DNA from: Nitrososphaerota archaeon | GTDB taxonomy: Archaea; Thermoproteota; Nitrososphaeria; Nitrososphaerales; Gagatemarchaeaceae | NCBI GenBank assembly: GCA_005877365.1 | Contig: VBPP01000135.1 | Location: 1 to 28,179 of the forward strand | DNA: 28,179 nt | Direction: 5' to 3' | Shown: piece after piece, positions 837-22,174 of the stretch | How positions within the stretch are numbered: position 1 is the stretch's first letter | Layout of the letters: each line of letters begins with the position of its first letter | Translations under genes and position numbers: made by a program | Notes under the pieces: generated by a model | Seen by the model: the letters and a program-made list of their open reading frames with translations, nothing else | Database searches by the model: none | Told to the model about the DNA's origin: nothing

Positions 837-897
837 CGTTCAGCACTCCTGTTGCCTGCTCTCACTTACATTCATGAAGAGCGGCGAAGCGGTATCG

Positions 898-905
898 TAT
901 TTATT
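898..905 (-). promoter_or_regulatory. Candidate TATA box for rfcS
   Basis: AATAAATA on the minus strand ~60 nt above the ATG, with an SD-like AGGAGTG just before the start. Confidence 0.35.
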
Positions 906-1199
906 CCTAAGGGCGGGATGGCCTTGCGACATGCCCCAGGCGAGTATGGCGGCGAAGGTGTTACGAGATTTGTACAAGCCTATGAGCATCCCGGCGACAG
1001 GTGTCGGCTTCGACTGCGTCGTCGTAGACTCGTGCCTTCCTCCCCCAGGACTCACTCGAACCTGTCTCGGTCTCACCAGAAAGGCTTTGTCCGTCCCCAT
1101 CCTCTGACTTCTCGCTGCTGGCAGAATTATTCTCGAGAGCACGTCTGATGCTTCTAGCGTCTCTTGATCTAGTATCGGGTACGCTTTATCCTTGAAGGT

Positions 1200-2417
1200 C
1201 TAGTGTGAGACAGCAGCTGCACCCTTCTCGCTCACCAGCCTGTCCTCCCGGAATCTCGAGAGTCTGAACGGTCTGATGACGTCGGGAGTCCTCTTTGTTG
1301 CGATCAGTTCGGCGATCCTCTTCCCCGACACTGGTCCTGCCTTGAAACCGTAAGTCCCCCAGCCCACATCGAGGACAAACCCCTTCAGGCCATCTACCTC
1401 CCCAAGTATCGGGCTGTAGTCAGGGGTCATATCGCACAACCCTCCCCACTGCCTCAGCACCCTCACGTGCCTCAGTCCTGGAAAGAGCTCGAGCGCATGA
1501 GCTACGATACTCTCCAGAGTCTCGAGCGTGGATCCCTGGCTATACGACGAGTACGGGTCAATCTCTGACCCCATGACGAGCTCACCCCTGTCAGTCTGGT
1601 ATACATAGACGTGAAGGTTAGCAGAGACGACCACCTTGTCCAAGAAGGGTTTGAGTGGCTCTGTGACACACGCCTGGAGGGGGTGGGTCACCACCGGAAG
1701 ATCGACGCCCACCATCTTCGAGACGGTGGTGCACCATCCTGAGGTTGCGTTGACCACGCAGTCTGCCCTTATCACTTCTCCCTTGTCGGTCCTCACACCG
1801 GTGACCTGGTGGTCTTTCACGTCTATGGTGATAACCTCGGTGCGGGGGTGAACCTCTCCCCCATGCCTCTCAACCCCCCTTGCATACCCCCAGACGACCG
1901 CGTCATGCCTGATCACCCCTCCGGGAGCGTGATAGAGTGCCGCCTTCACAGGATATCGAGGTCTGTCACTGGTGTCGAGCGCGGGAACCAGCCTTTTTAT
2001 CTCGTCGGGCCATATGACCCGGCTGTTGACTCCAAGAGCCTTGTTGACCTCCGCCCTCCTCCAGAGGCCATTTACCGCCGAGTCCGTGTGGGCAAGGCTT
2101 AGGTGGCCAATCTGCGAGAAGAGAAGGTTGAAGTTGAGCTCCTTCGAGAGCTCTTCGTAGAGCTTCAGACTCTCGCTGTAGAAATGTACCCCCTCCACGG
2201 TCATGTAGTTGGCCCTGATGATGGCGGTATTCCTACCGCTGTTCCCACCGCCCAGGTAGACCTTGTCCAGGACCGCTACGTTAGTGATGTTGTGATTCTT
2301 TGCAAGATAGTAAGCAATCGAGAGACCGTGAACTCCCGCACCGATAACTACAACGTCGTATCTCGGTTTCAGCTTATGTCTCTGCCACATCTTCTCCTTT
2401 CTGAACAAGGCTCGCAA
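1200..2417 (-). CDS. soxB: Heterotetrameric sarcosine oxidase / N-methylglutamate dehydrogenase beta subunit (SoxB/MgdA)
   Basis: YDVVVIGAGVHG FAD motif, GGGNSGRNT, RHDAVVWGYARG, DMTPD, GWGTYGFKAGP and C-terminal EKGAAAVSH typical of SoxB. TTG start. Confidence 0.92.
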   Translation of the reverse strand: MRALFRKEKMWQRHKLKPRYDVVVIGAGVHGLSIAYYLAKNHNITNVAVLDKVYLGGGNSGRNTAIIRANYMTVEGVHFYSESLKLYEELSKELNFNLLFSQIGHLSLAHTDSAVNGLWRRAEVNKALGVNSRVIWPDEIKRLVPALDTSDRPRYPVKAALYHAPGGVIRHDAVVWGYARGVERHGGEVHPRTEVITIDVKDHQVTGVRTDKGEVIRADCVVNATSGWCTTVSKMVGVDLPVVTHPLQACVTEPLKPFLDKVVVSANLHVYVYQTDRGELVMGSEIDPYSSYSQGSTLETLESIVAHALELFPGLRHVRVLRQWGGLCDMTPDYSPILGEVDGLKGFVLDVGWGTYGFKAGPVSGKRIAELIATKRTPDVIRPFRLSRFREDRLVSEKGAAAVSH

Positions 2418-2427
2418 CTCAATCGCC

Positions 2428-3180
2428 CTAACCTGACGACCTCGAACCCCCTAACCTATCGGGAGAGTCGAGCCCGAACGGGGCGATTCCATACTCATGT
2501 CCAGCCTCGATGATAGCATCCCACACATACTCCGCGTAGTCTCTCCCACAGTAGACGTCGAAGGCAGTTGTGCCTCCTGAGGACTTCCCATCGAATCGCA
2601 CTATTGTTGAGTGGACCTTTGCGAGGCCGGCCTCCAGGCAGAAAGGTCCGCCTGTCTCTCTACCCGACAAGTCCACTTGAACCAGCTTCCTGAGAACCGC
2701 CTCGCTGGACGGCCCCCCAACTGTGAACCCAGCAAGGATCGAGGAGACGTTGGTGAGATTTGCTCCGTCCTCCAATTTCAGCATACCCTCAACGTCAAGG
2801 GCGGAGGTGGACTTGAACGGTTGCGTGAGGAGGAGCGCGTGCTCCTTCGTCAGCCTGCAAGCGTAAATCAAGGAGAAGCGCTTACTCCTCACATCTCGCT
2901 CTGATACCTGACTCGAAAGCTTGACCTCTCCCGCCTTCCTTGGGATGACTACAGAGGACAGGTTCTTCTCCATGAACTTGTCGACCTCGGTCCCCTTGAC
3001 GTCAACCTTCCCGTAATGGCTGATGTCGCATATTCCGACGGAACGGAGAACATTCTTGAACTCGTCTTCCGCCCCTCTGTAGAATCTCGGAAGAATCCAT
3101 CCATCAAGGTCTGCCAGCTTGGCACCCAACTCCGCGTGCCTGCGGTGGAGGGCTGTTCTCCTACTTGGCATCTCGCTCAC
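2428..3180 (-). CDS. GcvT-like folate-binding subunit at the gamma position (SoxG/MgdD-like)
   Basis: RRTALHRRHAELGA...GWILP...VGICDISHYGK resembles the GcvT N-terminus; DVYCGRDYAEYVWDAIIEAGHEYGIAPFG; lies between soxA and soxB. Confidence 0.75.
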   Translation of the reverse strand: MSEMPSRRTALHRRHAELGAKLADLDGWILPRFYRGAEDEFKNVLRSVGICDISHYGKVDVKGTEVDKFMEKNLSSVVIPRKAGEVKLSSQVSERDVRSKRFSLIYACRLTKEHALLLTQPFKSTSALDVEGMLKLEDGANLTNVSSILAGFTVGGPSSEAVLRKLVQVDLSGRETGGPFCLEAGLAKVHSTIVRFDGKSSGGTTAFDVYCGRDYAEYVWDAIIEAGHEYGIAPFGLDSPDRLGGSRSSG

Positions 3181-3207
3181 CCGTCCTGATGCTACCCCAC
3201 TGCTTCG

Positions 3208-6183
3208 TCATGCCCTCAATCTCTTCCCCTCTGGATCGTAGAAGGGCGCCAATGTGACCTCCGCACCATTCAGCGCATCGTCTGACTTTACCCTTATCAG
3301 TGACCCTTCCTTGTAATGCTCTGGGGTGACGAGAGCCATACCCACGCATCTGCCAACTTTTGGACTGAACTTTGAGCTTGTCACGAAACCGACATGCCGG
3401 CTCCCGTCCTGCGAGAAGACCTGGTCGCCGTCATGCGCAACCATGGAGTCCTTCATGACGAAACCCACAAGCATCCGCTCGGGCTCCTTCTTCTCGGCTG
3501 CGACCAGCGCAGCTTTACCGACAAAGTCCTCCTTCTCGAACTTCACGGTCCACGCCATGTCCGCCTCGAACGGATTTGACAGGGCGTCTGTATCTTGCCC
3601 TACGATAACGTGCTTCTTCTCCAGCCTCAGGACCCGTTGTGTCTCGACCCCGAATGGCTTAACTCCGAACTCCTTTCCGGCTTCAAGAAGGGTGTCCCAG
3701 AAATACTCGCCGAACTCGGCAGGGAAGTGTATCTCCCAACCGGTCTCGCCCACGAATCCAATTCTGAGCAGGATGCATGGAACCCCGGCCACCTCCCCTT
3801 CGGCGGAGCTCATGTAGGGGAACGCCCCACTGGAGAGGTCGACGGTCGTTAATTTTTGAAGGAGGTCTCTGGCTTTCGGACCAGCAACGTTCACTGCACC
3901 CAGACCAGCGGTCACGTTGGTGATGTAGGCGTCCAGCCTTAGTGCGGTAGCCCACCAGACGAGCCACTCTTCGACGAACTCTACATTCCCAGTCGTCGTC
4001 GTGATAAAGTAGTGAGTCTCGGAGAGCCTTGTCACAGTCCCGTCGTCCAAGACTATTCCAGCGTCGTCGCAGATGACTCCGTAGCGGCTCTTTCCGACCT
4101 TGAGTGTCGAGAATATGTGCGTATAGACAAAGTCCAGAAGCTTCCCGGCATCTCTTCCCTTAACATCAAGCCTCCCCAACGTGCTGACGTCGATTACCCC
4201 AACGCTCTCCCTGACTGCCTTGTACTCCTCTTCCACAGAGGTGTAGACGTGAGGTCTCTTCCACTCCCCCATGTCCATGATTCGCGCCCCGAGTTCGATG
4301 TGCTTGTAATGTATGCCTGTGAGTTTCACTGGATGAAGCTCGGCTCCCGCGAGTGCTCCCATGGCGACGGGCACGTAGGGTGGGCGGGAGACCGTCCTCC
4401 CCGTCTGAGCTATCGAGCGCCCCGTAACTCTGCTGCAGAGATGGAGCGAAGGCATGGAGCACATCTTCCCCTGGCAAGGACCCATCGTCACCGTACTGTA
4501 TCGCTTTAGGGTCTCTATATCGTCGAACCCCTCGAAGGTCGCGAGCGAAATATCCTTCGCCACGACATCTTCGCAGACGCACACGAACCTCTTCCGCATC
4601 TTGTCGGATCCAGGATATTCAACGACCAGCACATCGGGACCTCTCGTGCGTTTCATCCCCTCCCGGTATTTGCCCTCATACTGAGAGACTAGCCTGGAGT
4701 AGGTCTCGAGCGACTTTCTTTGATACTCGACCTTCAGTTCCGAACTTCGCTCCATCGCGGGGAGATTGACGGCAGCGCTCAGCCCCGCAACCTTGCCTTG
4801 CATTATGGCGATGTTGAGATCATGAATCCCGGTCAGGTCGCCACAGACATAGACGGTGGGTTTGAGTTCTCGAGGGATAAACTCCCTCAAGAGCTCGTCA
4901 TAGATCGTTCGAGAACCAGTCTGATTCAACAACCAAGCTTCGGTCTCAAAGCCTGTCGAGAGGCTTACCAGGTCGCAGCTCACAACCCTCTCCGTACCAT
5001 GTACCAACTCGCCCTCGTTGTCAACTTCGCATATCACGACGGAGCTCACGTGCTTCGACCCTCGCGCCTCTTTCACCGCCCATCCCAGAAAGGTCTGAAC
5101 CTTGGCGTCCTCAATCTCGGCCAGTGTTTCGGGCGCTCCGACCGCCTTCCTGGAGTCGATGTACGCTTCCAGCTTGACGCCTGCATCCATAAGCGTGCGA
5201 GCGACGCCGAGACCTGAATCGTTGTTCGAGACGACTACTGCCCTCTTTCCTGGGATGACACCGTACAGATTGACCAGACGCTGGATCCCCCTCCCCAAGA
5301 AGACCTCGGGAAGGTCGTTATTCTGGAAGACCGACGGGAATTCGTGAGCTCCAGTTGCGAAGACGAGTTGTTCGGCGCGTAGCCTGATCACACTGTTTCC
5401 CCGTACGATGCCAATCAGGTTCGACTCGTATATTCCGAATGCCGTCGAGTTGTCGAGGACTGTCATGTTAGGGCGGTCTCTGACAGCCTTCTCGAGTGTT
5501 GAGGCCACGGCGGAGGACTTGAGCCCAGAGTACGCCCCCTCGCCGGTCGCAACGTCTATGCTCAAGGTCTCGCCGGAGTACCGGAGGTGCCCTCCGAGAG
5601 CGGGTTGGTCATCAACCAGTACAACCCTCGCCCCGGCGTTGCCGGCCTCCAGCGCCGCGAAGATGCCACTAGGTCCGCCCCCAATCACTGCCACGTCAGC
5701 CTGGAGATTGAGGTGCTCGAAGCTGCTGGAGTGAATAGATCGACCATCCTTCGGACCCTTACCGGTCGCAGAGGCGATCTCCTCCTCGATGTCGCCGAGC
5801 CCGGTGAGCCGGCGGATAATCCACTCAACCCTGGACCATTCGATTGGTGGGTTGATGAAAGTCTTGTAGTAGAACCCGACGGGGAGGAACCGGCCAATCT
5901 TGTCGATAACGGAAAAGATGTCATGCTCGAGTGAAGGCCAGCAATTCTGAGATTTGACCTTCATCCCCGCCCTGACTCTCTCGGTGCATGCCTTGACGTT
6001 TGGGACCCCATCCACGCTCATCAGGCAGTTGGGACATCTTCCCGAGACGCAGAGTAGGCCTCTCGGCCGGTGATACTTGAAACTCCTGCTGAAGATCCTG
6101 ACCCCGGATGCGTACAGGGCAGACGCAATAGTATCACCCTCAAATGCACTCATTCTTCTACCGTTGAATTCGAAGTTCAGCAA
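3208..6183 (-). CDS. soxA: Sarcosine oxidase / N-methylglutamate dehydrogenase alpha subunit (SoxA/MgdC) with Fer2, pyridine-nucleotide, BFD-like and GcvT domains
   Basis: GDTIASAL, SRSFKYHRPRG, DVAVIGGGPSG, TLKRYST, GcvT-like C-terminal half (DVSTLG, RIGFVGETGWE, LRLEK). Start uncertain: TTG 6183 is the first in-frame start. Confidence 0.92.
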   Translation of the reverse strand: MLNFEFNGRRMSAFEGDTIASALYASGVRIFSRSFKYHRPRGLLCVSGRCPNCLMSVDGVPNVKACTERVRAGMKVKSQNCWPSLEHDIFSVIDKIGRFLPVGFYYKTFINPPIEWSRVEWIIRRLTGLGDIEEEIASATGKGPKDGRSIHSSSFEHLNLQADVAVIGGGPSGIFAALEAGNAGARVVLVDDQPALGGHLRYSGETLSIDVATGEGAYSGLKSSAVASTLEKAVRDRPNMTVLDNSTAFGIYESNLIGIVRGNSVIRLRAEQLVFATGAHEFPSVFQNNDLPEVFLGRGIQRLVNLYGVIPGKRAVVVSNNDSGLGVARTLMDAGVKLEAYIDSRKAVGAPETLAEIEDAKVQTFLGWAVKEARGSKHVSSVVICEVDNEGELVHGTERVVSCDLVSLSTGFETEAWLLNQTGSRTIYDELLREFIPRELKPTVYVCGDLTGIHDLNIAIMQGKVAGLSAAVNLPAMERSSELKVEYQRKSLETYSRLVSQYEGKYREGMKRTRGPDVLVVEYPGSDKMRKRFVCVCEDVVAKDISLATFEGFDDIETLKRYSTVTMGPCQGKMCSMPSLHLCSRVTGRSIAQTGRTVSRPPYVPVAMGALAGAELHPVKLTGIHYKHIELGARIMDMGEWKRPHVYTSVEEEYKAVRESVGVIDVSTLGRLDVKGRDAGKLLDFVYTHIFSTLKVGKSRYGVICDDAGIVLDDGTVTRLSETHYFITTTTGNVEFVEEWLVWWATALRLDAYITNVTAGLGAVNVAGPKARDLLQKLTTVDLSSGAFPYMSSAEGEVAGVPCILLRIGFVGETGWEIHFPAEFGEYFWDTLLEAGKEFGVKPFGVETQRVLRLEKKHVIVGQDTDALSNPFEADMAWTVKFEKEDFVGKAALVAAEKKEPERMLVGFVMKDSMVAHDGDQVFSQDGSRHVGFVTSSKFSPKVGRCVGMALVTPEHYKEGSLIRVKSDDALNGAEVTLAPFYDPEGKRLRA

Positions 6184-6202
6184 CTTCGACCTGTCGAGGA
6201 GT

Positions 6203-6439
6203 TCAGATGGACACGGAGTTGTCCCGAGTATCTCTTATCGCGAGAAACCACTTATGACAGCCAAGCCTGTGAAACCACCACTCCTGTTGAACGCCTGCGA
6301 CGTTCTCCCTCATGTATACATACTTCATCCACTCCTCGGAAGAGGAGTTGACTCTCGGCCTCTTGTGAGCCTCCCCCCCAAATCTGAATTCGTATACGTC
6401 TCTCTTGCCGCAATTCGGACACTCAAGCAGGAATCCCAT
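6203..6439 (-). CDS. soxD: Sarcosine oxidase / NMG dehydrogenase delta subunit (SoxD/MgdB), Zn-binding
   Basis: CPNCGKR..EFRFGGE, YVYMREN, EWWFHRLGC..WF..RDT; Cys/Cys/His/Cys ligands intact. Confidence 0.92.
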   Translation of the reverse strand: MGFLLECPNCGKRDVYEFRFGGEAHKRPRVNSSSEEWMKYVYMRENVAGVQQEWWFHRLGCHKWFLAIRDTRDNSVSI

Positions 6440-6493
6440 GGTATCTAGCTCACTTCATCCCTCCCCAGCTGATAGGTTTGTACAGTGAAACCA

Positions 6494-7849
6494 TCAGAGG
6501 TACGTCAGGTATCGGTCAACTTCCCACTGACTGACTGTGCTGTGATACTCGTTCCATTCCCTCATCTTCATCTTGGCATAATAATCCGCAAACTCCTTCC
6601 CGAGCGCATCAAGACTCACTCTGTCCCTCTGGAACTCGTCGACAGCTTCCTTCAGTGATCCGGGGAGTAGTTCGATCCCGCGCTCCTCCAAGTCCTTCTC
6701 AGTCGTCCTGTACATGTTCCCCTTATTCATCGGTCCCGGGTCGAGCTTTCTGTCTATCCCGTCGAGACCTGCCGCGAGCATCGCCGTGGTTGCGAGGTAG
6801 GGATTGCAGGCTGAATCGGGAGTCCTGTTCTCGATATGCTCACCCGAAGCTACCCTGATCATCTGCGTCCGGTTGTTCCCGCCATAGGAGATGTAGACGG
6901 GTGCCCAAGTCGCCCCCGAGGCCGAGCCGCCAGCCACCAGACGCTTATACGAGTTAACGGTTGGAGCGGTTAGCGCGATATACGCCTTGGCATGTTCGAG
7001 TAATCCACCGATGAAATGGTACGCGGTCTTCGAGAGACCTAGCTTCTGCGGGTCCCTCTCGTCGTAGAAGAGGTTCTTTGTCCCCTCCCATAGGCTCATG
7101 TGGAAGTGAGCTCCGTTACCTGTCCTGTTGGTGAAGGGCTTGGGCATGAAAGACGCTACTGCGCCCATTGTACCAGCAAGGTAGGAGACCGCGAACTTGA
7201 AGAAGGTATACTTGTCGCATGTGGCCAGGGCGTCATCGTACCTGATGTTGACCTCATACTGTGCAGGTCCGTCCTCATGGTCCGTGGCCTCGCTGTGCCA
7301 TCCAAGTTCATCGAGATAGTTGTTCAAGGTCTGGAGGAAATCGAGATTCCTCCCGAGAAGCTTGAGGTCGTAGCATGGCTTTGCAATGTTCTCTATGTCG
7401 TCGTACGTCCGAATGCGTCCGGCCTCCCTTTTCACGAGGTAGAATTCGGGTTCAATCCCTGTCTTGAAGGAAAGCCCCCTCTCCTTCTTCACTCTCTTCA
7501 GGAACCTGTCGAGTATCGTCCTGGTGCAGTAAGGCCAAGACTTTCCCTCGGTGTACAGGTTCGCCGCAAACCAGACGGTGTTCTTCTTCCAGGGGAGGAC
7601 CGTCATTGTGTTGAGGTCGGGTATCGTTATGAGGTCTGGTTGGTGTGGCTGCTGCCCCATCTCGGTGCTTACGGCGAACCCGGCGAAACCCACCCCGTTG
7701 GTGACCAAGTTCTGGAACTCAGAGACAGGAACCATCTTCGCCTTTGGCACCCCGTTGATGTCGACGAACTGAGAGAGCACGAACTGGATCCCCTTGCTCT
7801 TCAGGGCTTTCACCACTGAGGCAATCTCCTTCGTGCTAGCGCCATTCAA
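6494..7849 (-). CDS. gmaS: Gamma-glutamylmethylamide synthetase (GlnT/GmaS, glutamine synthetase-like)
   Basis: GS fold with GlnT/GmaS-type motifs GFAGFA, KPCYD, DHEDG, MPKPFTNRTGNGAHFH, SGATWAP, GGNNRTQMIR; embedded between mgs and mgd-like genes. Confidence 0.85.
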   Translation of the reverse strand: MNGASTKEIASVVKALKSKGIQFVLSQFVDINGVPKAKMVPVSEFQNLVTNGVGFAGFAVSTEMGQQPHQPDLITIPDLNTMTVLPWKKNTVWFAANLYTEGKSWPYCTRTILDRFLKRVKKERGLSFKTGIEPEFYLVKREAGRIRTYDDIENIAKPCYDLKLLGRNLDFLQTLNNYLDELGWHSEATDHEDGPAQYEVNIRYDDALATCDKYTFFKFAVSYLAGTMGAVASFMPKPFTNRTGNGAHFHMSLWEGTKNLFYDERDPQKLGLSKTAYHFIGGLLEHAKAYIALTAPTVNSYKRLVAGGSASGATWAPVYISYGGNNRTQMIRVASGEHIENRTPDSACNPYLATTAMLAAGLDGIDRKLDPGPMNKGNMYRTTEKDLEERGIELLPGSLKEAVDEFQRDRVSLDALGKEFADYYAKMKMREWNEYHSTVSQWEVDRYLTYL

Positions 7850-7855
7850 GTTCAG

Positions 7856-8938
7856 TTATTCACCTGCAAGCCTGACCCCGCTCATCAGAGAAGCTTCGAG
7901 CGTGAGGGCGGAGAGGTCTTCGTATTCCAGACTGTGTACATCCCCTTTACCCAATGATCTGGCCAATAGAGCAATCTCCATCGTCATCGAATTTATGAAT
8001 TTTGCAACTCTTATCCCTGTCCCCGGCTCAATCTTCCGGTTCGGGCGGCCCTCCTCTGCTATTTCGTTTGATGAGTTGTAGTATCCGAGAGCAATCAGCG
8101 CCGCTTCATCGATTCTCACAGCGTCTGCACCCAGAGCGAGAGCCTTCGACGCATCAGCACCGTTTCTTGTCCCTGTCGCCGAGATGAGGCTCACTTCCCC
8201 GAGTACCTTCCTCTCGCGCAGTGCCTCCCTTGCCCTCGGGATTCCCGCGATGATCGGAACCCTGCAATAGTCGAACAGGCCCTCTGGCCTCGTGATAGTC
8301 GAAGTCTTCAGGCCTCGGAGGACCAGACCGTCGGCCCCGACGCCTACCGCGGCTTTGACCTCGTCTTCAACCCGTGCCCCTGGGCAGCTCACAAAGATGG
8401 GGACCTTAACAGCCCCCCCTCTTCTGAGATCCCTTATGAGGCCGTGCAGCGCATCGACAGTCGTCCCAAGCTCGAGGTTGAGCTGTCTTGCTTCTGCCTT
8501 GAGGGAGGAGACGAGCCTCGATGCACCCTTTCGGACTGGCACCTCGTAGATCATTCGGTGAGCGAGCTTCCTCTCGTCGCGATTCACCTTGCCTTCCAGT
8601 GAGATCGCAGAGTTTGCCAAACTACTCCCCCTGGCAAGTTCCAGCCGCGCCCTGTTCTCTAGAGCCGATGACGCGCCGACGTAGATGGGAGTCTCGAGGA
8701 CGAGCGGGGTTGAGGCGGTTCTGGACCCGAGGGTGGTCTCTGTCTTGCATTTCTCCTTGTATCCCTCAAGCGGAAACCTGGTCAACCCGGACGCCAAGAA
8801 GACGAGTTCGTCGAATGTGGGCAGGTCGCGGAGAGGCCTGAAACCGCTCAGCCGGTATTGGCCTTGGGCCCTGCTGTGAATATCCGCGATTGTCTGGGGT
8901 GTCCAGATCTGACTATGAGGATAGATCAATGCCTTCAC
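7856..8938 (-). CDS. Degenerate MgsC-like FMN-glutamate-synthase-family paralogue, probably non-catalytic
   Basis: Aligns with the upstream MgsC (LPTFDELVFL, TRFPLEGYKEKC, RNGADASKALALGADAV, SMTMEIALLARSLGK) but lacks GMSYG, TGDGG, GQGAKP and the Fe-S cysteines. GTGA overlap with the mgsC stop. Confidence 0.8.
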   Translation of the reverse strand: MKALIYPHSQIWTPQTIADIHSRAQGQYRLSGFRPLRDLPTFDELVFLASGLTRFPLEGYKEKCKTETTLGSRTASTPLVLETPIYVGASSALENRARLELARGSSLANSAISLEGKVNRDERKLAHRMIYEVPVRKGASRLVSSLKAEARQLNLELGTTVDALHGLIRDLRRGGAVKVPIFVSCPGARVEDEVKAAVGVGADGLVLRGLKTSTITRPEGLFDYCRVPIIAGIPRAREALRERKVLGEVSLISATGTRNGADASKALALGADAVRIDEAALIALGYYNSSNEIAEEGRPNRKIEPGTGIRVAKFINSMTMEIALLARSLGKGDVHSLEYEDLSALTLEASLMSGVRLAGE

Positions 8939-10269
8939 TTTCCCCTTCCCGCACTCTTCAGCAGAGTCCCACCACTTCCGACCATCGGAACCTTCGCCAT
9001 CATCGACGCCTCGACGTTGAGCGCCGAGAGATCGTCTACCGTCAGGTCGTGGACATTCCGTTTACCAAGTGCACAGGTGATCAGCTTCATCTCGAGTGTC
9101 ATCGAACTCAGCAGGTTCGCGACTCTGACGGCCGCTTCATCGATAGCCAATCGCTTCTCGAGGAGCGGGTCCTGGGTGGTTATCCCGACGGGGCACTTCC
9201 CCGTGTGGCACTTGGTGCAGTATCCTGCAGGTACCCCTACCTCTCGAACAAAATCGGTGATTCCAGGAAGCTCCCGGTTGCAGTTCAACGCGATGATTGC
9301 CGCCTGTCCTATCGCGACGGCGTCCGCGCCAAGTGCGATGGCCTTCGCCGCGTCTATACCGTTCCTTATTCCACCGGATGCTACAAGGTAGACCTTCTTG
9401 AGAAGACCTAGCTCTTCGAGTGCCTCTCTTGCGAGCACGATTCCCGGAAGCGTCGGTATGCCGGAATGGTCGAGGACCACCTCGCTCGATGCTCCCGTCC
9501 CAGCCTGCATGCCGTCTATCACGATCCCATCGGCGCCGGCTTTTGCGGCGAGCTTCACGTCGTCCTTCACCCTGCAGGCTGGAATCTTCACCTGCACCGG
9601 GACCCTCCAGTCTGTCACTTCCCTCAGCATCTCGATGAAGATCCCAAGGTCGTCTGGACCGAGCCAGTCCGGATGCCGGGTGGGAGACCTCTGATCTATC
9701 CCTGGCGGCAGCTCCCTCTTCTTTGCGATGATCGCGCTCACCTTCTGACCCATCAGTAGGCCGCCCGTGGCTGGCTTGGCACCTTGGCCTACGACAACCT
9801 CGACAGCGTCACCGCTGATCATGTCCTGTGGTGTGACGCCGTACCTGCTCGCGTTCACCTGATAGATCATCGTCGTCGAGTACTTTCGCTCCTCGGTCAG
9901 CATCCCGCCATCGCCCGTGCAGGTGGCAGTCCCGACCTTGGCAGCTCCCTTGGCGAGAGCAGTCTTCGCGCTCCTTGAGAGTGCACCGTAGCTCATTCCG
10001 GTGATGTAGACGGGAGTGGAGATACTTATCGCGTTCCTTGCGTAGCGGGTCCCCAGAACTGTCTCTGTGCTGACGTCAGCCGGCCGTAACTCAACCCCCC
10101 TCCCAGATATGTACCTCGGAATGAAGATAATGTCGTCGAAATGGGCTATCCGCTGGAACGTGCTAAAACCCCTTATTCTGTAGCGCCCGAGGTCTGCCTT
10201 CACCTGGAGGTCCTGGAAGACTTCATTGGTCCAGCCCTCGCGCCGAGAGACTTCATCGGACACAATCAT
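8935..10269 (-). CDS. mgsC: N-methylglutamate synthase subunit C (FMN-binding glutamate synthase domain, Fe-S cysteines)
   Basis: GMSYGALS, TGDGGM, EVVVGQGAKP..GG.LMGQK (MgsC-type rather than GltB EIK), RSPTRHPDW, CTKCHTGKCPVGITTQDP. Confidence 0.88.
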   Translation of the reverse strand: MIVSDEVSRREGWTNEVFQDLQVKADLGRYRIRGFSTFQRIAHFDDIIFIPRYISGRGVELRPADVSTETVLGTRYARNAISISTPVYITGMSYGALSRSAKTALAKGAAKVGTATCTGDGGMLTEERKYSTTMIYQVNASRYGVTPQDMISGDAVEVVVGQGAKPATGGLLMGQKVSAIIAKKRELPPGIDQRSPTRHPDWLGPDDLGIFIEMLREVTDWRVPVQVKIPACRVKDDVKLAAKAGADGIVIDGMQAGTGASSEVVLDHSGIPTLPGIVLAREALEELGLLKKVYLVASGGIRNGIDAAKAIALGADAVAIGQAAIIALNCNRELPGITDFVREVGVPAGYCTKCHTGKCPVGITTQDPLLEKRLAIDEAAVRVANLLSSMTLEMKLITCALGKRNVHDLTVDDLSALNVEASMMAKVPMVGSGGTLLKSAGRGK

Positions 10270-10306
10270 TCGGTTGTTATCACTTCAGCGCTGGCGGCTC
10301 CAGTGA

Positions 10307-10319
10307 ATTATACTTTCTT
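10307..10319 (-). promoter_or_regulatory. Candidate internal BRE-TATA promoter for mgsC
   Basis: AAGAAAG-TATAAT on the minus strand in a 65-bp gap, ~38 nt above the mgsC ATG. Confidence 0.45.
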
Positions 10320-10334
10320 GGAGCGTTAGAGCGG

Positions 10335-11090
10335 CTAGATGACCAGTCTTTCTCTCTCCAATGGTTCGAGAGAGTCGTACTGGTAGAGCCTCTTGGCCGA
10401 GACTATCTTCCTGAATCTCCTTGGAAGAATGTCGTCCCGGAATTTAAGGGCCTTCAGAAAAGCCCTCAATTCTACCTCCTCACTTCGGGTCGCGGACTCG
10501 GTCTTCGCATCTACGCCGAGTGAGCCGATCTCCCCGCCGACGTACACGATTCCCTCGTACATCGAGTCACCTGCAGCGTCTCCCACACCCCCCATGACGA
10601 TTATCCTGCCTCTCTGCATCATGAATCCAGTCAGGAATCCGCTGTTGCCGGCGATCACCAGAGTCCCTCCCTTCATCGATATGCCGGCCCTCGCACCCGC
10701 GTTCCCCCAGACGAGAATCTGACCGCCCCTCATCGATGCGCCCACGGAGGCGCCAGCATCTTCCCTGATGACTATGCTCCCTGACATCAGATTGTCTCCC
10801 AAGCCCCAACCGGAGTTGCCCTCGATTGTGGCGCTGATACCGTCACAGAAGGCGCAGCAGTAGTATCCCACGCTCCCGGCGAAGGATAAGCTGCATCTCT
10901 TGACTATCCCGACCGCGAGATTATGCCTCGCGTCGGGGTTGAGGATTGTGATGTACCTTCCCTTCGAGACTCCCGACTTTATTGAAGCGTTCAGCAGTCT
11001 CGTCGTAAGCTTGCGTGCGTCGATAGAGTACCCCTGTGAGACTGGGGCGGAGAGAGCTTTGGGCACGTTACCTGCCAGCCTCTCGGTCAA
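10335..11090 (-). CDS. mgsB: N-methylglutamate synthase subunit B (GXGXG / GltB C-terminal-like)
   Basis: NPDARHNLAVG, repeated GXGXG units (GNSGWGLGDNLMSG, GNAGARAGISMKGG, GFLTGFMMQRG, GDSMYEG). Confidence 0.9.
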   Translation of the reverse strand: MTERLAGNVPKALSAPVSQGYSIDARKLTTRLLNASIKSGVSKGRYITILNPDARHNLAVGIVKRCSLSFAGSVGYYCCAFCDGISATIEGNSGWGLGDNLMSGSIVIREDAGASVGASMRGGQILVWGNAGARAGISMKGGTLVIAGNSGFLTGFMMQRGRIIVMGGVGDAAGDSMYEGIVYVGGEIGSLGVDAKTESATRSEEVELRAFLKALKFRDDILPRRFRKIVSAKRLYQYDSLEPLERERLVI

Positions 11091-11103
11091 GATCGGTGCA
11101 TAG

Positions 11104-12051
11104 TTAATTGAGGCGGACTTTTATCCGAGGTGCGAGAGAAACATTCCAGGTAAGGACCTCGTGCTCTTGCGGCTCGATCCTCCTCACGTCGTCAGGGAAG
11201 ATTCGCCGGAGCGCAACCTCTTCTGAGGCGACCCCGACCATTTCGTCGGTCTCCAGTATTACGAACGGCTTTGCGGACCAGCGGTCCTTCGCCATGCCAA
11301 TCCCCGAGTCGGTGGAGACCACGTACGTGAAGGTCCCGTCCAGGTCGTCCAAGCTCTCCTCGAGGGCGTCTCCGAGCTTCCGTCTCCTGCTTAGTTTGTC
11401 AGCGATGTACACAGCGATAACTTCAGAGTCGTTATGTGTCTGGAACCTAAAGCCTCGCTGCTGAAACTCTCTTTTCAGCTTGTGGTAGTTGGTCAATTGG
11501 CCATTGTGGACGACGGTAATGTCCGGAAAGGGATACGCCCAGAAAGGATGAGAGTGCGTGATATCGACCTGGCTCTCGGTCGCAAGTCTTACGTGTCCAA
11601 GCCCGTGTGTCCCGTTGACCTTTGAGAAATGATGCTTCTTATCCAGCTCGTAAGCATCTCCCACGTCCTTGATAACCTCTGAGGATCTACCTATACTGTG
11701 AATCTCTGCTCCCTTGACAGAGAGGATTGAGTCTGACAACTTTCCCAGGTCCCCTGAGTAGTTCAATCCAATCCTGCGAAACCTGCCAAAGTCGTCAATG
11801 AAGACGACGGATCCCCCGAGCGCTGCGACGGCGTTCCTCACGCCCTCAATTACATGCGAAGCTCCTTGGTCCTCTGAGACCACCACGCGGACGACATAGT
11901 CAGTCCCAAAGTGCTGGCCGGCAATGTTCACACCCGTCGAGTCAACGCCCCTGTGTCGCATGGAATAGAGCATCTCCCTTAGCTGAAGACCAACGGCTTG
12001 TGAACTGGTGCTTTCGCCCGTCTTATACAGGATCGCGGCTATTCCGCACAT
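11104..12051 (-). CDS. mgsA: N-methylglutamate synthase subunit A (class II glutamine amidotransferase, Ntn)
   Basis: Start reassigned to ATG 12051 so that Cys2 is the Ntn nucleophile: MCGIAAIL, RHRGVDSTG, GHVRLATES, HSHPF, VHNGQLTNY, NDSEV, LDGTFT, KDRWSAKP. Confidence 0.9.
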   Translation of the reverse strand: MCGIAAILYKTGESTSSQAVGLQLREMLYSMRHRGVDSTGVNIAGQHFGTDYVVRVVVSEDQGASHVIEGVRNAVAALGGSVVFIDDFGRFRRIGLNYSGDLGKLSDSILSVKGAEIHSIGRSSEVIKDVGDAYELDKKHHFSKVNGTHGLGHVRLATESQVDITHSHPFWAYPFPDITVVHNGQLTNYHKLKREFQQRGFRFQTHNDSEVIAVYIADKLSRRRKLGDALEESLDDLDGTFTYVVSTDSGIGMAKDRWSAKPFVILETDEMVGVASEEVALRRIFPDDVRRIEPQEHEVLTWNVSLAPRIKVRLN

Positions 12052-12075
12052 TACTTCTTCCCATGGGCGATGGTG

Positions 12076-12090
12076 GAAATAAGCTTTAGC
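12076..12090 (-). promoter_or_regulatory. Candidate BRE-TATA promoter for a near-leaderless mgsA transcript
   Basis: GCTAAAGC-TTATTT on the minus strand, TATA ~26-31 nt above the ATG, just outside the IS end. Confidence 0.4.
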
Positions 12091-12109
12091 CGTCATTGTT
12101 CTGATACCG

Positions 12110-12749
12110 ACAAGATGAGCTGAATGGAGTCTCTCCATTCAGCGTCTCATGAGGCCTCATGCGATTTGTACCAGAATGCGAACAGATGGACGAACCTTTC
12201 GACCCTCTTGATTGCCTTGATCCCCTCCCTGACGCCGAAGTTGTGGTGGAATCGCTTGGTCCCCTCCTTGAAGGTCCGATACCACCGTTCGATGTAGTTC
12301 CTGATGCTGAACGTCAGGGGCACCCGGTCCACGTCCAGCCACTCGAAGGCGCATGCTTACCATGGGGCGTGGTCGACTATGAACAGCGGATTCCTCCTGC
12401 ACGACTCCAGGGCCATCTTCGTGGTGTCTATGGTTGACGATGCTCACCGACCTGTAGGATTTGGCGGATACGATCTCCCTCCTCGTAAGGTGCGCGGAGA
12501 CGCAAGCAATCTTGCCGTTCCTCTTCACCTTAGTCTCGTCGAAGAGAATTACCGACATCTCCTTCCTCCTGGAGAGTGGTCGTGAGGAGAAGTACGACTC
12601 GAACTTGAGGATCCACTGTGGCCGCTTCAGCCTTGCTTCGACTGGAAACCTTGTGCCTCTGGAAATATCCTTCTGTGCTTCGTGGCTAGGAGGAACTCAT
12701 CCTTCGTCTTTTCATCACCCAATGAATGCGGAGGATGCCTCCTCGCCAT
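12110..12749 (-). pseudogene. IS6-family DDE transposase pseudogene
   Basis: Fragments across frames: QWILKF, LFDETKVK, LFIVDHAPW*, RNYIERWYRTFK..TKRF, MRPHETLNGETP. In-frame TAA at 12357-12359 plus several frameshifts. Confidence 0.88.
12119..12143. repeat. Perfect 11-bp inverted repeat with a 3-nt loop
   Basis: gctgaatggag-tct-ctccattcagc, read directly; adjacent perfect 14-bp palindrome catgaggcctcatg at 12148-12161. Confidence 0.9.
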
Positions 12750-12802
12750 ATCTGTTCCGTTATCTTGACGGTATCACTGATATGAATCTGCTCGACCTAG
12801 CA

Positions 12803-14346: not shown

Positions 14347-14355
14347 GCCTTGTGC

Positions 14356-15559: not shown

Positions 15560-15562
15560 CGC

Positions 15563-17667: not shown

Positions 17668-17672
17668 CTCTT

Positions 17673-18044: not shown

Positions 18045-18071
18045 TCACTCACTCCGATTTTTTGCGGGAAC

Positions 18072-18082
18072 GAATTTAAGTC
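18072..18082 (+). promoter_or_regulatory. Candidate TATA box for the solA-like gene
   Basis: gaaTTTAAGtc in the divergent intergenic region, preceded by purine-rich ggaacg. Confidence 0.4.
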
Positions 18083-18139
18083 TTGTGTCATGCGGGTGGG
18101 TCGGTCCCAGATGGCGTCGAGGGCGGGTGCACCCGGGCG

Positions 18140-19273: not shown

Positions 19274-19289
19274 GTGAGGCTCGGGGGAC

Positions 19290-20763: not shown

Positions 20764-20790
20764 TAGTTACCACAAAAGAGAGTGGGGGAC

Positions 20791-22152: not shown

Positions 22153-22174
22153 CGGAATGCAGGAGCGTCCTCGC

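What the first reader, a model, noticed from the sequence alone, without database searches (positions are those of the whole stretch)
1200..12051. Complete bacterial-type N-methylglutamate (methylamine) pathway in an archaeal chromosome
Seen: nine co-oriented genes (mgsA, mgsB, mgsC, mgsC-like, gmaS, soxD, soxA, soxG-like, soxB) inside archaeal context (rfcS, gins23-mcm, TATA/BRE-like promoters). Established: GmaS + MgsABC + MgdABCD is the route by which bacteria such as Methyloversatilis and Methylocella use methylamine as an N or C source; archaeal methylamine use is normally described through methanogen methyltransferases. Inference: this non-methanogenic archaeon oxidises methylamine or releases its nitrogen through NMG, probably after horizontal gain. 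I cannot check whether this has been reported in archaea.
Basis: partly seen in the sequence, partly recalled or inferred. Interest (0 to 1): 0.88.

Follow-up and report, generated by a model that had tools for sequence, protein, structure and literature searches.

The report
Methylamine-use gene cluster in soil archaeon
A soil archaeon that does not oxidise ammonia carries a complete set of bacterial-type genes for using methylamine, probably as a nitrogen source, within an 18-kb inserted block that also holds urease. This extends a pathway known from bacteria to an uncultured group of archaea.

Summary
Nine co-oriented, intact genes (window 1200-12051, minus strand) encode mgsA, mgsB, mgsC, a diverged mgsC copy, gmaS, and soxD/A/G-like/B.

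- The GS-like protein is GmaS-type. It scores 569 bits on TIGR03105 (cut-off 469.6). Its best solved relatives are glutamate-methylamine ligases. The GS ammonium-site Asp/Ser are Ala/Ala, and the GmaS catalytic Asp is present.
- The Sox subunits match heterotetrameric sarcosine oxidase, not Pyrococcus proline dehydrogenase.
- The contig is not chimeric. Both flanks match the gene order conserved in the family, and independent assemblies and four soil runs span the junctions.

The host is a non-ammonia-oxidising Nitrososphaerota MAG. The cluster lies in an 18.4-kb island, with urease and a monomeric N-methyl-amino-acid oxidase, inserted between rfcS and an ABC transporter.

A GmaS-type gene occurs in only 4 of 97 species of the family. 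None was found in about 800 other genomes sampled from the class and phylum.

Gene trees show one archaeal clade nested among bacterial sequences. Its composition matches each host, so the transfer is old.

The function is inferred and was not assayed. The most likely role is nitrogen scavenging from methylamine, with the methyl group entering the folate pool. The scan had noted related bacterial modules before, but no archaeal one.

The parts
11104..12051 (-). mgsA: amidotransferase subunit of N-methylglutamate synthase (class-II/Ntn type). The true start is the ATG at 12051.
   Evidence: Pfam GATase_6/7. The N-terminus reads Met-Cys-Gly at the ATG at 12051, so the catalytic Cys1 is present.
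10335..11090 (-). mgsB: GXGXG subunit of N-methylglutamate synthase.
   Evidence: Pfam GXGXG, E 4.6e-18. It is 66-98% identical in four thaumarchaeal loci and 35-46% identical in bacterial clusters.
8935..10269 (-). mgsC: FMN-binding glutamate-synthase-domain subunit of N-methylglutamate synthase.
   Evidence: Pfam Glu_synthase, E 1.7e-94, covering profile positions 53-368 of 369. The thaumarchaeal sequences form a clade with 100* support.
7856..8938 (-). mgsC2: diverged tandem copy of mgsC, found only in the archaeal versions of the cluster.
   Evidence: Only profile positions 190-312 of Glu_synthase match (E 8e-17). It is 32% identical to mgsC. Orthologues at 56-98% identity occur in L014, L015, L016 and L100; a gene with the same Pfam domains sits at this position in L147. 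Bacterial clusters have a single mgsC. It groups with thaumarchaeal mgsC at support 77.
6494..7849 (-). gmaS: gamma-glutamylmethylamide synthetase-type ligase.
   Evidence: TIGR03105 at 569 bits, above the 469.6 cut-off. PDB 9qur scores 439 bits and 7cql scores 359 bits. Diagnostic residues were checked, and trees.
6203..6439 (-). soxD / mgdB-like delta subunit. It is 78 aa here and 87 aa in the sister MAG.
   Evidence: Pfam SoxD, E 4e-27. A 97-nt stretch present in TA_8 and in 3 of 4 soil runs is missing at 6211/6212.
3208..6183 (-). soxA / mgdC-like alpha subunit, with an N-terminal four-Cys Fer2_4 domain and a folate-binding GCV_T domain.
   Evidence: Pfam and TIGR01372 matches. PDB 2gag_A scores 440 bits. 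The Cys45/50/53/66 motif is shared with part of the bacterial cluster-linked SoxA proteins.
2428..3180 (-). soxG-like / mgdD-like gamma subunit (GCV_T fold).
   Evidence: Pfam GCV_T, E 1.3e-26, and a weak TIGR01375 match.
1200..2417 (-). soxB / mgdA-like beta flavoprotein subunit.
   Evidence: DAO domain, E 3.8e-72, and TIGR01373 at 442 bits. PDB 1vrq_B scores 347 bits, and the covalent-FMN His173 is conserved. It is 56-67% identical to soxB inside bacterial gmaS-mgs clusters.
12052..12802 (.). Non-coding spacer upstream of mgsA and likely promoter region. The 133-aa ORF here is not a gene.
   Evidence: No family match even at E 5. Frame-breaking indels occur among strains at 12167, 12178, 12222 and 12343. 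A TTATTT box lies about 27-32 nt before the ATG.
837..19289 (.). 18.4-kb island (NMG cluster, urease operon and solA-like oxidase) inserted between rfcS and the ABC transporter.
   Evidence: In G427, G003, G014 and G012 of the same family, rfcS and abcF are about 90-130 nt apart. The GmaS-type gene and urease (ureC) were searched across family relatives: urease was found only in this genus, the GmaS type in this genus and one other.
12803..18044 (-). Urease operon, ureABC-EFGD, part of the island.
   Evidence: Pfam matches. In the family it was found only in genus g1. It is 57-61% identical to the ureC of ammonia-oxidising relatives.
18083..19273 (+). solA-like monomeric N-methyl amino acid oxidase (MTOX/MSOX family), part of the island.
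   Evidence: NF008425 at 447.7 bits, above the 257 cut-off.
3..836 (-). rfcS (replication factor C small subunit, 3'-truncated by the contig end): conserved archaeal flank.
   Evidence: Pfam matches. It is 69-74% identical and syntenic in relatives. A TA_8 contig spans soxB through rfcS.
19290..28177 (.). Family-conserved flank: liv/urt-like ABC transporter (19290-24538), gins (24593-25156) and mcm with an intein (25157-28177).
   Evidence: Pfam and NCBIfam matches. The same order is found in most genomes of the family.

Best explanation
The nine genes form an N-methylglutamate (NMG) pathway operon in the chromosome of a Nitrososphaerota (Thaumarchaeota) soil archaeon that does not oxidise ammonia.

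**Proposed working** (inferred from the bacterial pathway):
1. Methylamine enters the cell, probably through Amt.
2. GmaS ligates it to glutamate using ATP, giving gamma-glutamylmethylamide.
3. MgsA (Cys1 amidotransferase), MgsB, MgsC and the archaea-specific MgsC2 convert this to N-methylglutamate and release ammonia.
4. The four-subunit SoxBDAG-type flavoenzyme (MgdABCD-like) demethylates N-methylglutamate. This regenerates glutamate, passes the C1 unit to tetrahydrofolate through the GCV_T domain of the alpha subunit, and delivers electrons to an unknown acceptor.

The net result is ammonia for assimilation plus methylene-THF for the C1 pool. The main role is probably nitrogen scavenging, because the cluster travels here with urease and a second N-demethylating oxidase.

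**Origin.** The cluster came from bacteria once, long ago. It then gained a tandem mgsC duplicate and is now patchily distributed in one archaeal family. In this genus it sits in an 18.4-kb island inserted between rfcS and an ABC transporter.
For: **Genes and domains:**. MgsA has the catalytic Cys1.

**GmaS identity:**
- It scores 569 bits on TIGR03105 (cut-off 469.6). On the GlnA model it scores 372.7 bits, below that model's 429 cut-off.
- The best PDB matches are 9qur 'glutamate--methylamine ligase' (439 bits) and Rhodovulum GmaS 7cql (359 bits). Archaeal GlnA scores 300 bits.
- Six of the seven residues of the methylamine pocket described for RhGmaS are kept, as are the catalytic Asp177, Glu186 and Arg312 (PMC7948447).
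- The GS ammonium-site motif, D-G-S-S in the organism's own GlnA, reads A-G-F-A here. The motif HHEV in GlnA reads DHED here.
- In the rooted careful tree the GmaS family has 100/97 support, and the archaeal clade (100/100) is bracketed by beta- and alphaproteobacterial gmaS.

**Sox subunits:**
- Their closest solved relatives are heterotetrameric sarcosine oxidases.
- The covalent-FMN His173 is kept.
- The GCV_T domains argue for a one-carbon leaving group.
- SoxB is 56-67% identical to soxB genes that lie inside bacterial gmaS-mgs clusters.

**Archaeal chromosome:**
- Both flanks are syntenic with family relatives.
- A TA_8 contig crosses the soxB-rfcS junction at 98% identity.
- Four soil runs from four studies cover positions 1-20000 at even depth and bridge the solA-abcF junction.
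- The same nine-gene order occurs on a 1.47-Mb contig and on 26-kb contigs.
- GC3 is host-like.

**Transfer from bacteria:**
- A GmaS-type gene occurs in 4 of 97 family genomes and in none of 400 class and 400 phylum genomes sampled.
- The archaeal sequences form a single clade in the GmaS, MgsC and SoxB trees.

**Downstream capacity:**
- folD lies in a purine operon.
- FTHFS is present in two cluster-bearing relatives.
- Amt is present in all five genomes searched.

**Weak hint of expression:** four soil metatranscriptome runs hold 12-17% of the gmaS 31-mers.
Against: - No enzyme assay, isotope data or laid-out RNA data exist, so the substrate is inferred.
- One pocket residue differs from characterised GmaS (Gln175 is Ala here). 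All non-proteobacterial relatives share this change, and it could widen the range of amines accepted.
- SoxA and SoxB score below the NCBIfam cut-offs of the sarcosine-oxidase subfamilies (811 against 1164, and 442 against 529).
- No sequence feature separates N-methylglutamate dehydrogenase from sarcosine oxidase.
- In relative G426 the sox genes lie apart from mgs-gmaS, next to DHDPS-, Ldh_2- and M24-family genes. The two modules can therefore work independently.
- No molybdopterin formate dehydrogenase was found in the five genomes searched, so full oxidation of the methyl group for energy is unsupported.
- The genome is only 64% complete.
- Earlier follow-ups of this scan found that some bacterial gmaS-mgs look-alikes may serve other amines.
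Confidence: 0.7

Rival explanations
1. The machinery is the same but the substrate differs. The ligase and Mgs proteins tag another small primary amine (ethylamine, ethanolamine or similar), or the Sox enzyme acts on another N-methyl amino acid. The cluster would then be an NMG-pathway look-alike and not a methylamine pathway.
For: - The pocket residue Gln175 of RhGmaS is Ala here and in all non-proteobacterial relatives.
- Characterised GmaS enzymes accept ethylamine (abstract of PMC7677707).
- Earlier follow-ups in this scan judged several bacterial gmaS-mgs modules to be sister systems for other amines.
- The extra MgsC2 subunit is unexplained.
Against: - The folate-binding GCV_T domains in SoxA and in the gamma-like subunit point to a one-carbon group being removed.
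- The protein exceeds the curated TIGR03105 cut-off.
- In the tree it lies between the two proteobacterial gmaS lineages.
- The other six pocket residues and the three catalytic residues are kept.
Confidence: 0.17
2. The island degrades the products of creatine, creatinine or methylguanidine breakdown. On this reading the Sox genes are a true heterotetrameric sarcosine oxidase, urease handles the urea, and gmaS-mgs handles only the methylamine side product.
For: - Urease and a monomeric sarcosine/N-methyltryptophan-type oxidase sit in the same island.
- The Sox subunits' closest solved relatives are sarcosine oxidases.
- This idea came from an earlier first-stage note.
Against: - No creatinase, creatininase or guanidinase-type gene is in the island. 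Every ORF was scanned.
- In four other archaeal loci the nine-gene or five-gene cluster occurs without urease or solA.
- SoxB is closer to soxB genes embedded in bacterial gmaS-mgs clusters (56-67%) than to solved sarcosine oxidases. The latter figure, roughly 45%, was estimated by eye from the alignment.
Confidence: 0.1
3. The cluster is an assembly or binning artefact, with bacterial DNA joined to archaeal DNA.
For: - The genome is a fragmented MAG (357 contigs, 64% complete, 2.5% contamination).
- The closest non-archaeal homologues are bacterial.
Against: - Both flanks are syntenic with relatives.
- An independent MAG contig crosses the soxB-rfcS junction.
- Contigs from four runs in four studies cover the whole island at even depth and bridge solA-abcF.
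- Twenty runs hold 73-83% of the k-mers.
- GC3 and codon usage equal those of the genome.
- The same cluster lies on a 346-kb long-read contig and on a 1.47-Mb contig.
Confidence: 0.02

Closest known systems
N-methylglutamate pathway of bacteria (gmaS, mgsABC, mgdABCD), as studied in Methyloversatilis universalis FAM5, Methylocella silvestris and Methylobacterium extorquens PA1 (my own knowledge; titles and abstracts of PMC5023235 and PMC5023228 listed, PMC4169470; papers not opened)
   Same: - The set of enzyme families is the same: GS-type ligase, Ntn amidotransferase, GXGXG protein, FMN glutamate-synthase domain and a four-subunit SoxBDAG-type flavoenzyme.
- The genes form one co-oriented operon.
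- Gene-by-gene homology to bacterial clusters is 35-67%.
   Different: - The host is an archaeon.
- A conserved, diverged second mgsC is present.
- The gene order is mgsABCC2-gmaS-soxDAGB.
- SoxA has a four-Cys Fer2_4 domain, as some but not all bacterial clusters do.
- The cluster is embedded with urease in an island.
- No serine-cycle or formate-dehydrogenase support for methylotrophic growth was found.
Solved GmaS structures: PDB 9qur (glutamate--methylamine ligase) and Rhodovulum sp. 12E13 GmaS, 7cql (PMC7948447)
   Same: - The alignment runs full length at 439 and 359 bits.
- The catalytic Asp177, Glu186 and Arg312 are kept, as are pocket residues Tyr147, Glu179, Asn188 and Lys30'.
- The GS ammonium-site Asp and Ser are both Ala.
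   Different: - Gln175 is Ala.
- Identity to alphaproteobacterial gmaS is only 42%, and to betaproteobacterial gmaS 49%.
- The source organism of 9qur was not given by the tool.
Heterotetrameric sarcosine oxidase (TSOX; PDB 2gag, 1vrq)
   Same: - It has the four subunits alpha, beta, gamma and delta.
- The beta-subunit His173 that binds FMN covalently is kept.
- The alpha subunit has a folate-binding GCV_T domain.
   Different: - Scores fall below the NCBIfam subfamily cut-offs.
- The first ~150 residues of the alpha subunit, which include the four-Cys Fer2_4 domain (residues 1-80), do not align to TSOX alpha.
- The genomic context is gmaS-mgs, which in bacteria marks N-methylglutamate dehydrogenase.
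Methanogen methylamine methyltransferases (MtmB/MtmC), the classical archaeal route; my own knowledge
   Same: The substrate would be the same (methylamine), and the host is an archaeon.
   Different: - The proteins and chemistry are unrelated. The methanogen route is corrinoid- and pyrrolysine-dependent, anaerobic and methanogenic.
- Nothing of that kind is in this window.

Membership tests
GmaS (gamma-glutamylmethylamide synthetase; NCBIfam TIGR03105 'type III glutamate--ammonia ligase') | Scores above the curated family cut-off and below the cut-off of type I GlnA. | tested here: met
   TIGR03105 scores 569 bits against a 469.6 cut-off. TIGR00653 (GlnA) scores 372.7 bits against a 429.15 cut-off.
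GmaS (gamma-glutamylmethylamide synthetase; NCBIfam TIGR03105 'type III glutamate--ammonia ligase') | Catalytic Asp177, Glu186 and Arg312 and the methylamine pocket of RhGmaS are present, and the GS ammonium-site Asp50'/Ser53' are lost. | tested here: met
   Asp177, Glu186 and Arg312 are kept, and six of seven pocket residues are kept (Gln175 is Ala). The motif reads A-G-F-A here and D-G-S-S in the organism's own GlnA; DHED here corresponds to HHEV in GlnA. The link between D-G-S-S and GS Asp50/Ser53 rests on my own knowledge of Salmonella GS numbering.
GmaS (gamma-glutamylmethylamide synthetase; NCBIfam TIGR03105 'type III glutamate--ammonia ligase') | Lies phylogenetically inside the gmaS/glnT clade, apart from GlnA and other GS-like paralogues. 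| tested here: met
   In the careful tree rooted on the organism's own GlnA, the GmaS family has 100/97 support. The archaeal clade is bracketed by Aquabacterium (beta) and Methylobacterium/Paracoccus (alpha) gmaS that lie in gmaS-mgsABC modules.
GmaS (gamma-glutamylmethylamide synthetase; NCBIfam TIGR03105 'type III glutamate--ammonia ligase') | Prefers methylamine over ammonium in an assay. | not testable with these tools
   This needs purified protein.
N-methylglutamate synthase MgsABC | Three adjacent subunits next to gmaS: an Ntn amidotransferase with Cys1, a GXGXG protein, and an FMN glutamate-synthase domain. | tested here: met
   Pfam GATase_6/7, GXGXG and Glu_synthase. Met-Cys-Gly at the ATG at 12051. 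An additional diverged MgsC2 is present.
N-methylglutamate synthase MgsABC | Converts gamma-glutamylmethylamide or methylamine to N-methylglutamate. | not testable with these tools
N-methylglutamate dehydrogenase MgdABCD / heterotetrameric sarcosine oxidase family | Four subunits (beta DAO flavoprotein, delta, alpha with a folate-binding GCV_T domain, gamma) in one operon. | tested here: met
   PDB 2gag/1vrq alpha scores 440/434 bits and beta 340/347 bits. The beta-subunit His173 is kept.
N-methylglutamate dehydrogenase MgdABCD / heterotetrameric sarcosine oxidase family | Scores above the NCBIfam cut-offs of the sarcosine oxidase subunit subfamilies. | tested here: not met
   soxB scores 442.5 against 529.45, soxA 810.6 against 1164, soxD 85.7 against 116.5, and soxG 22.3 against 143.95. 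The proteins are diverged members. They are not filed as sarcosine oxidase proper.
N-methylglutamate dehydrogenase MgdABCD / heterotetrameric sarcosine oxidase family | Acts on N-methylglutamate and not on sarcosine. | not testable with these tools
   Only context speaks to this. SoxB is 56-67% identical to soxB genes inside bacterial gmaS-mgs clusters.
Archaeal heteromeric L-proline dehydrogenase (Pyrococcus PDH1, PDB 1y56) | The closest solved or curated relative is proline dehydrogenase, with no GCV_T domain in the alpha subunit. | tested here: not met
   1y56_A scores 94 bits and 1y56_B 170 bits, against 440 and 347 bits for TSOX. NF040813 pro_dh scores 24.6 bits against a cut-off of 600. 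GCV_T and GCV_T_C domains are present.
Native archaeal chromosomal locus (not a chimera) | Both flanks are syntenic with relatives, the junctions are seen in independent data, and composition is host-like. | tested here: met

The most novel reading that the evidence does not exclude
Some Group I.1c-type soil Thaumarchaeota may be aerobic methylamine oxidisers that gain energy as well as nitrogen from methylated amines. They would use an archaea-specific four-protein NMG synthase (MgsA, B, C and C2) and an iron-sulfur-bearing NMG dehydrogenase wired into the respiratory chain. This would be the first aerobic methylamine-based metabolism in archaea and a direct lead for cultivating this uncultured lineage.
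Probability: 0.18. Interest if true: 0.78.

Novelty: new member of a known kind. Interest (0 to 1): 0.56.

Why it matters
- Aerobic methylamine use through gamma-glutamylmethylamide and N-methylglutamate is treated as a bacterial trait. A survey of 70 nitrifier genomes, archaeal ammonia oxidisers included, found none of these genes (PMC10753782).
- The main genomic study of the related soil family does not mention methylamine, sarcosine or urease (PMC10640624).
- In the papers searched, the only archaeal attribution is an annotation-level remark about Halobacteriota reads in a salt lake (PMC13595746).
- Non-ammonia-oxidising soil Thaumarchaeota are reported to be abundant in acidic soils (abstract of PMC10640624). 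To my knowledge they are uncultured.
- A defined organic-nitrogen island (methylamine, urea, N-methyl amino acids) gives testable nitrogen sources for enrichment. It also shows how these archaea gained bacterial nitrogen-scavenging modules.
- The trait is rare (4 of 97 species), so it describes a niche specialisation and not the lineage as a whole.

Tried and rejected
1. **Chimeric contig:** rejected.
2. **The 133-aa ORF at 12157-12558 and the ORFs at 652-1148 as genes:** rejected. They have no family match even at E 5, the 12157-12558 ORF translates to low-complexity sequence, and strains differ by frame-breaking indels in both stretches.
3. **Island boundaries:** no tRNA, no direct or inverted repeats of 10 nt or more, and no integrase were found. 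The insertion mechanism is unknown.
4. **RNA elements and promoters:** there is no Rfam family in the window. Sigma-70-like sites are no more frequent than chance, 3 against 4.1 expected.
5. **A 'Bathyarchaeia' GmaS (P0038, 56% identity):** it lies on a 2.3-kb contig with only a short-chain dehydrogenase beside it. This is no evidence for a second archaeal lineage.
6. **Haloarchaea:** they could not be searched directly. Haloferax volcanii, Methanosarcina acetivorans and Methanocaldococcus jannaschii matched TIGR03105 only below the cut-off.
7. **Identity of the 1.47-Mb JGI contig (L100):** it could not be checked independently because the record is not held. It is assigned to the archaeal clade only by its genes, by the presence of mgsC2, and by one flank gene 71% identical to a G000 gene.
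8. **Vertical descent or transfer within the family:** unresolved. Monophyly of the two genus-g8 copies is not rejected (p-AU 0.066 for GmaS, and they form a weak clade for MgsC).
9. **Full C1 oxidation:** no molybdopterin formate dehydrogenase was found in five genomes. folD proved to be part of a housekeeping purine operon and not a dedicated module.
10. **Expression:** RNA runs hold only 12-17% of the gmaS k-mers. The single read-laying run had already been used, so expression is not shown.
11. **Naming the family:** the family is probably Group I.1c / Gagatemarchaeaceae, judged from 57% GC, soil origin, absence of amoA and a liv-type transporter. This could not be verified.

Full report
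**What is in the sequence**

The window is one whole contig (C290, 28,179 bp) of a metagenome-assembled genome. The genome has 1.79 Mb in 357 contigs, is 64% complete and shows 2.5% contamination.

Between 1200 and 12051 lie nine intact genes on the minus strand, separated by -4 to 65 nt. In order of transcription they are:
- mgsA: class-II amidotransferase.
- mgsB: GXGXG domain.
- mgsC: Glu_synthase FMN domain, E 1.7e-94.
- A second, degenerate Glu_synthase-domain gene, here called mgsC2 (E 8e-17; only profile positions 190-312 match).
- gmaS.
- soxD.
- soxA: Fer2_4, FAD, SO_alpha_A3, GCV_T and GCV_T_C domains.
- A 250-aa GCV_T-fold gamma-like gene.
- soxB: DAO domain.

The mechanical ORF for mgsA is over-extended. 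The ATG at 12051 gives Met-Cys-Gly, which is the catalytic Cys1 of Ntn amidotransferases.

**Surroundings**

- Upstream of mgsA is a 750-nt spacer. Its 133-aa ORF is not a gene: it has no family match, translates to low-complexity sequence, and differs among strains by frame-breaking indels.
- Next comes a full urease operon, ureABC-EFGD (12803-18044).
- A divergently oriented monomeric N-methyltryptophan/sarcosine-oxidase-type gene follows (18083-19273; NF008425 at 448 bits against a 257 cut-off).
- Then come a liv/urt-like ABC transporter, gins, and an intein-bearing mcm. rfcS lies at the other end of the contig.

**Host**

- The closest GmaS copies in 185,579 species genomes are three MAGs labelled Thaumarchaeota/Nitrososphaerota.
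- amoA was found in none of 24 sampled genomes of the host's family. It was found in four other families of the order.
- Genome GC is 57%.
- The lineage is probably Group I.1c / Gagatemarchaeaceae, which is described as 54-62% GC, soil-dwelling, heterotrophic and liv-encoding (PMC10640624). I could not verify this name.

**Is the contig truly archaeal?**

In four other genomes of the family the genes rfcS(-), abcF, abcG, sbp(-), perm1, perm2, gins and mcm(+) are contiguous, with rfcS and abcF about 90-130 nt apart. In this genome the same genes flank an 18.4-kb block (about 837-19289). That block holds the nine-gene cluster, the urease operon and the solA-like gene. This is a clean insertion into a conserved backbone.

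Independent data confirm the junctions:
- A contig of the sister MAG TA_8 (98% identical) runs from soxG through soxB into rfcS.
- Another TA_8 contig runs from ureA to soxG.
- Twenty soil metagenome runs from 14 studies hold 73-83% of the 31-mers of positions 600-10500.
- Contigs of four runs from four studies cover positions 1-20000 at even depth and bridge the solA-abcF junction.
- GC3 of the cluster genes (0.66-0.73) sits within the genome's distribution (0.69 ± 0.09).

The chimera hypothesis is rejected.

**Is the ligase GmaS or GlnA?**

- The protein scores 569 bits on TIGR03105 (cut-off 469.6). On GlnA it scores 372.7 bits, below the 429 cut-off.
- Its best solved relatives are 9qur, deposited as glutamate--methylamine ligase (439 bits), and Rhodovulum GmaS 7cql (359 bits). 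Archaeal GlnA scores 300 bits.
- The RhGmaS paper names Asp177, Glu186 and Arg312 as catalytic. It names Tyr147, Gln175, Asp177, Glu179, Glu186, Asn188 and Lys30' as the methylamine pocket (PMC7948447). After allowing for the 20-residue tag in the PDB chain, all are kept here except Gln175, which is Ala.
- In an alignment with the organism's own GlnA (contig C141), GlnA reads D-G-S-S where this protein reads A-G-F-A. This is the GS ammonium site Asp50'/Ser53' by my knowledge of Salmonella GS numbering.
- In the same alignment GlnA reads HHEV where this protein reads DHED, which includes the GmaS-specific Asp177.
- In a careful tree rooted on GlnA, the GmaS family is supported at 100/97. Aquabacterium (beta) branches first. 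The remainder then splits in two. One group holds a Chloroflexota-like clade plus the archaeal clade. The other holds alphaproteobacterial (Methylobacterium, Paracoccus), Planctomycetota/Poribacteria and Actinomycetota sequences.
- The proteobacterial references sit in annotated glnT/amidotransferase/glxC/FMN-glutamate-synthase modules.

The archaeal ligase is therefore bracketed by proteobacterial gmaS lineages.

**Are the Sox genes proline dehydrogenases?**

No.
- SoxA and SoxB match heterotetrameric sarcosine oxidase (2gag, 1vrq) at 440 and 347 bits. Pyrococcus PDH1 (1y56) scores 94 and 170 bits.
- The His173 that carries covalent FMN in the TSOX beta subunit is kept.
- SoxA has the folate-binding GCV_T and GCV_T_C domains.
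- The subunits score below the NCBIfam cut-offs for sarcosine-oxidase subfamilies, so I do not file them as sarcosine oxidase proper.
- SoxB is 56-67% identical to soxB genes that lie inside bacterial gmaS-mgs clusters. This is higher than its identity to solved TSOX, which I estimate at roughly 45% from the alignment.
- Sequence cannot separate N-methylglutamate dehydrogenase from sarcosine oxidase.

**Distribution and origin**

- GmaS-type genes above the cut-off occur in 4 of the 97 species genomes of the family. These are two genomes of this genus (this one and TA_8; a third genome of the genus lacks the gene) and 2 of 23 genomes of a second genus.
- None was found in 400 genomes sampled from the class or in 400 sampled from the phylum.
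- In a protein collection of about 5.8 billion sequences there are 26 further clusters at 67-91% identity, then a gap down to 59% or less.
- A 1.47-Mb JGI contig and a 26.5-kb contig carry the same nine genes in the same order, as does MAG AcS4-109.
- In the long-read MAG MFD09222.bin.2.70, mgsABCC2-gmaS lies on a 346-kb contig. The sox genes lie on another contig, next to DHDPS-, Ldh_2- and M24-family genes.
- The archaeal sequences form one clade in the GmaS tree (100/100), the MgsC tree (100*) and the SoxB tree (100*), nested among bacterial sequences. The nearest group is Chloroflexota-like, at modest support (88/87).
- GC of the cluster follows the host in four lineages: cluster/flank values are 0.47/0.47, 0.58/0.58 and 0.62/0.59, and about 0.56 in this contig.

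Together this points to a single, old acquisition from bacteria. Whether later spread within the family was vertical with many losses or horizontal is unresolved. The different genomic positions show that the cluster has moved.

**The extra mgsC**

- mgsC2 is 32% identical to mgsC and is present in every archaeal copy of the cluster examined. Identity is 56-98% in L014, L015, L016 and L100, and a gene with the same Pfam domains sits at this position in L147.
- The bacterial clusters examined have a single mgsC, to which mgsC2 aligns only weakly.
- It groups with archaeal mgsC at support 77.

This is consistent with a tandem duplication after the transfer, followed by rapid divergence. Its role is unknown.

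**How it most likely works**

By analogy with the bacterial pathway (inference):
1. Methylamine enters through Amt, which is present in all five genomes searched.
2. GmaS forms gamma-glutamylmethylamide.
3. MgsA, with the other Mgs proteins, converts it to N-methylglutamate and releases ammonia.
4. The Sox-type enzyme regenerates glutamate and passes the methyl carbon to tetrahydrofolate.

The organism has folate C1 metabolism. folD lies in a purine operon on C313, and FTHFS is present in two cluster-bearing relatives. No molybdopterin formate dehydrogenase was found in the five genomes searched.

The cluster also shares its island with urease and another N-demethylating oxidase, and within the family urease is confined to this genus. 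Taken together, this favours nitrogen scavenging over methylotrophic growth.

Four soil metatranscriptome runs hold 12-17% of the gmaS k-mers. This is only a hint of expression.

**Rivals**

- A different amine substrate is possible, because Gln175 is Ala here. Earlier follow-ups in this scan also found bacterial look-alike modules for other amines. The folate-binding domains argue for a C1 group.
It is also not supported by the other archaeal loci, which lack urease and solA.

**Novelty**

- Full-text searches found no report of this pathway in Thaumarchaeota/Nitrososphaerota.
- A 70-genome nitrifier survey found none of these genes.
- The family's main genomic paper does not mention methylamine, sarcosine or urease.
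- One 2026 salt-lake survey attributes gmaS, mgsC and mgdA reads mostly to Halobacteriota, by annotation alone. I could not test haloarchaea directly.

I rate this a new member of a known kind, with one variant feature (MgsC2). It is of moderate interest.

Noticed in passing
window 837-19289: The NMG cluster, the urease operon and the solA-like oxidase together form an 18.4-kb insertion between rfcS and abcF. These two genes are adjacent in four other genomes of the family. In the family, urease was found only in this genus (1 of 24 sampled relatives), and it is 57-61% identical to the ureC of ammonia-oxidising relatives. No tRNA, integrase or flanking repeats were found.
   Followed up: partly
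window 7856-8938: The diverged second mgsC (mgsC2) is conserved in all archaeal copies of the cluster examined, and the bacterial clusters examined have only a single mgsC. It groups with archaeal mgsC, so it looks like a duplication after the transfer. Whether it is a pseudo-enzyme partner was not tested.
   Followed up: partly
window 6211/6212: TA_8 and contigs of 3 of 4 soil runs carry 97 extra bases here. With them SoxD is 87 aa instead of 78 aa, so this contig has a small deletion or an assembly collapse at the soxD 3' end. A similar 69-base difference lies at 12619/12620 in the non-coding spacer.
   Followed up: partly
window 25157-28177: The MCM gene is interrupted by an intein with a LAGLIDADG homing-endonuclease domain (Intein_splicing and LAGLIDADG_3 matches). 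MCM open frames of very different lengths (about 680 to over 2000 aa) in relatives suggest variable intein content.
   Followed up: no
window 18083-19273: A monomeric N-methyl-L-tryptophan/sarcosine oxidase-type gene (NF008425, 448 bits against a 257 cut-off) faces the urease operon head-to-head. It is a second N-demethylating flavoenzyme in the island, and its substrate is unknown.
   Followed up: no
L103 (G426:C1:136000-153000), about 8544-16913: In the long-read relative the soxD/A/G/B genes sit apart from mgs-gmaS. They are co-oriented behind M24 peptidase-, Ldh_2- and DHDPS-family genes. soxA is split into two frames there, probably by long-read errors.
   Followed up: no
L006-L013 (family and order relatives): Many genomes of the family carry further GS-like paralogues (30-37% identical to GmaS). 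They form two clades separate from both GlnA and GmaS, and their function is unknown.
   Followed up: no
G426:C8:79459-81631 (L135, L136): The rfcS gene of this relative matches in two pieces about 1.3 kb apart. This suggests an insertion, possibly an intein, in RFC.
   Followed up: no
window 3208-6183 (residues 45-66 of SoxA): The four-Cys motif of the N-terminal Fer2_4 domain is kept in all archaeal SoxA proteins and in one group of bacterial cluster-linked SoxA (Planctomycetota, Latescibacterota, Gaiellales). It is lost in another group (Acidimicrobiia). It may mark a dehydrogenase-type electron path.
   Followed up: partly
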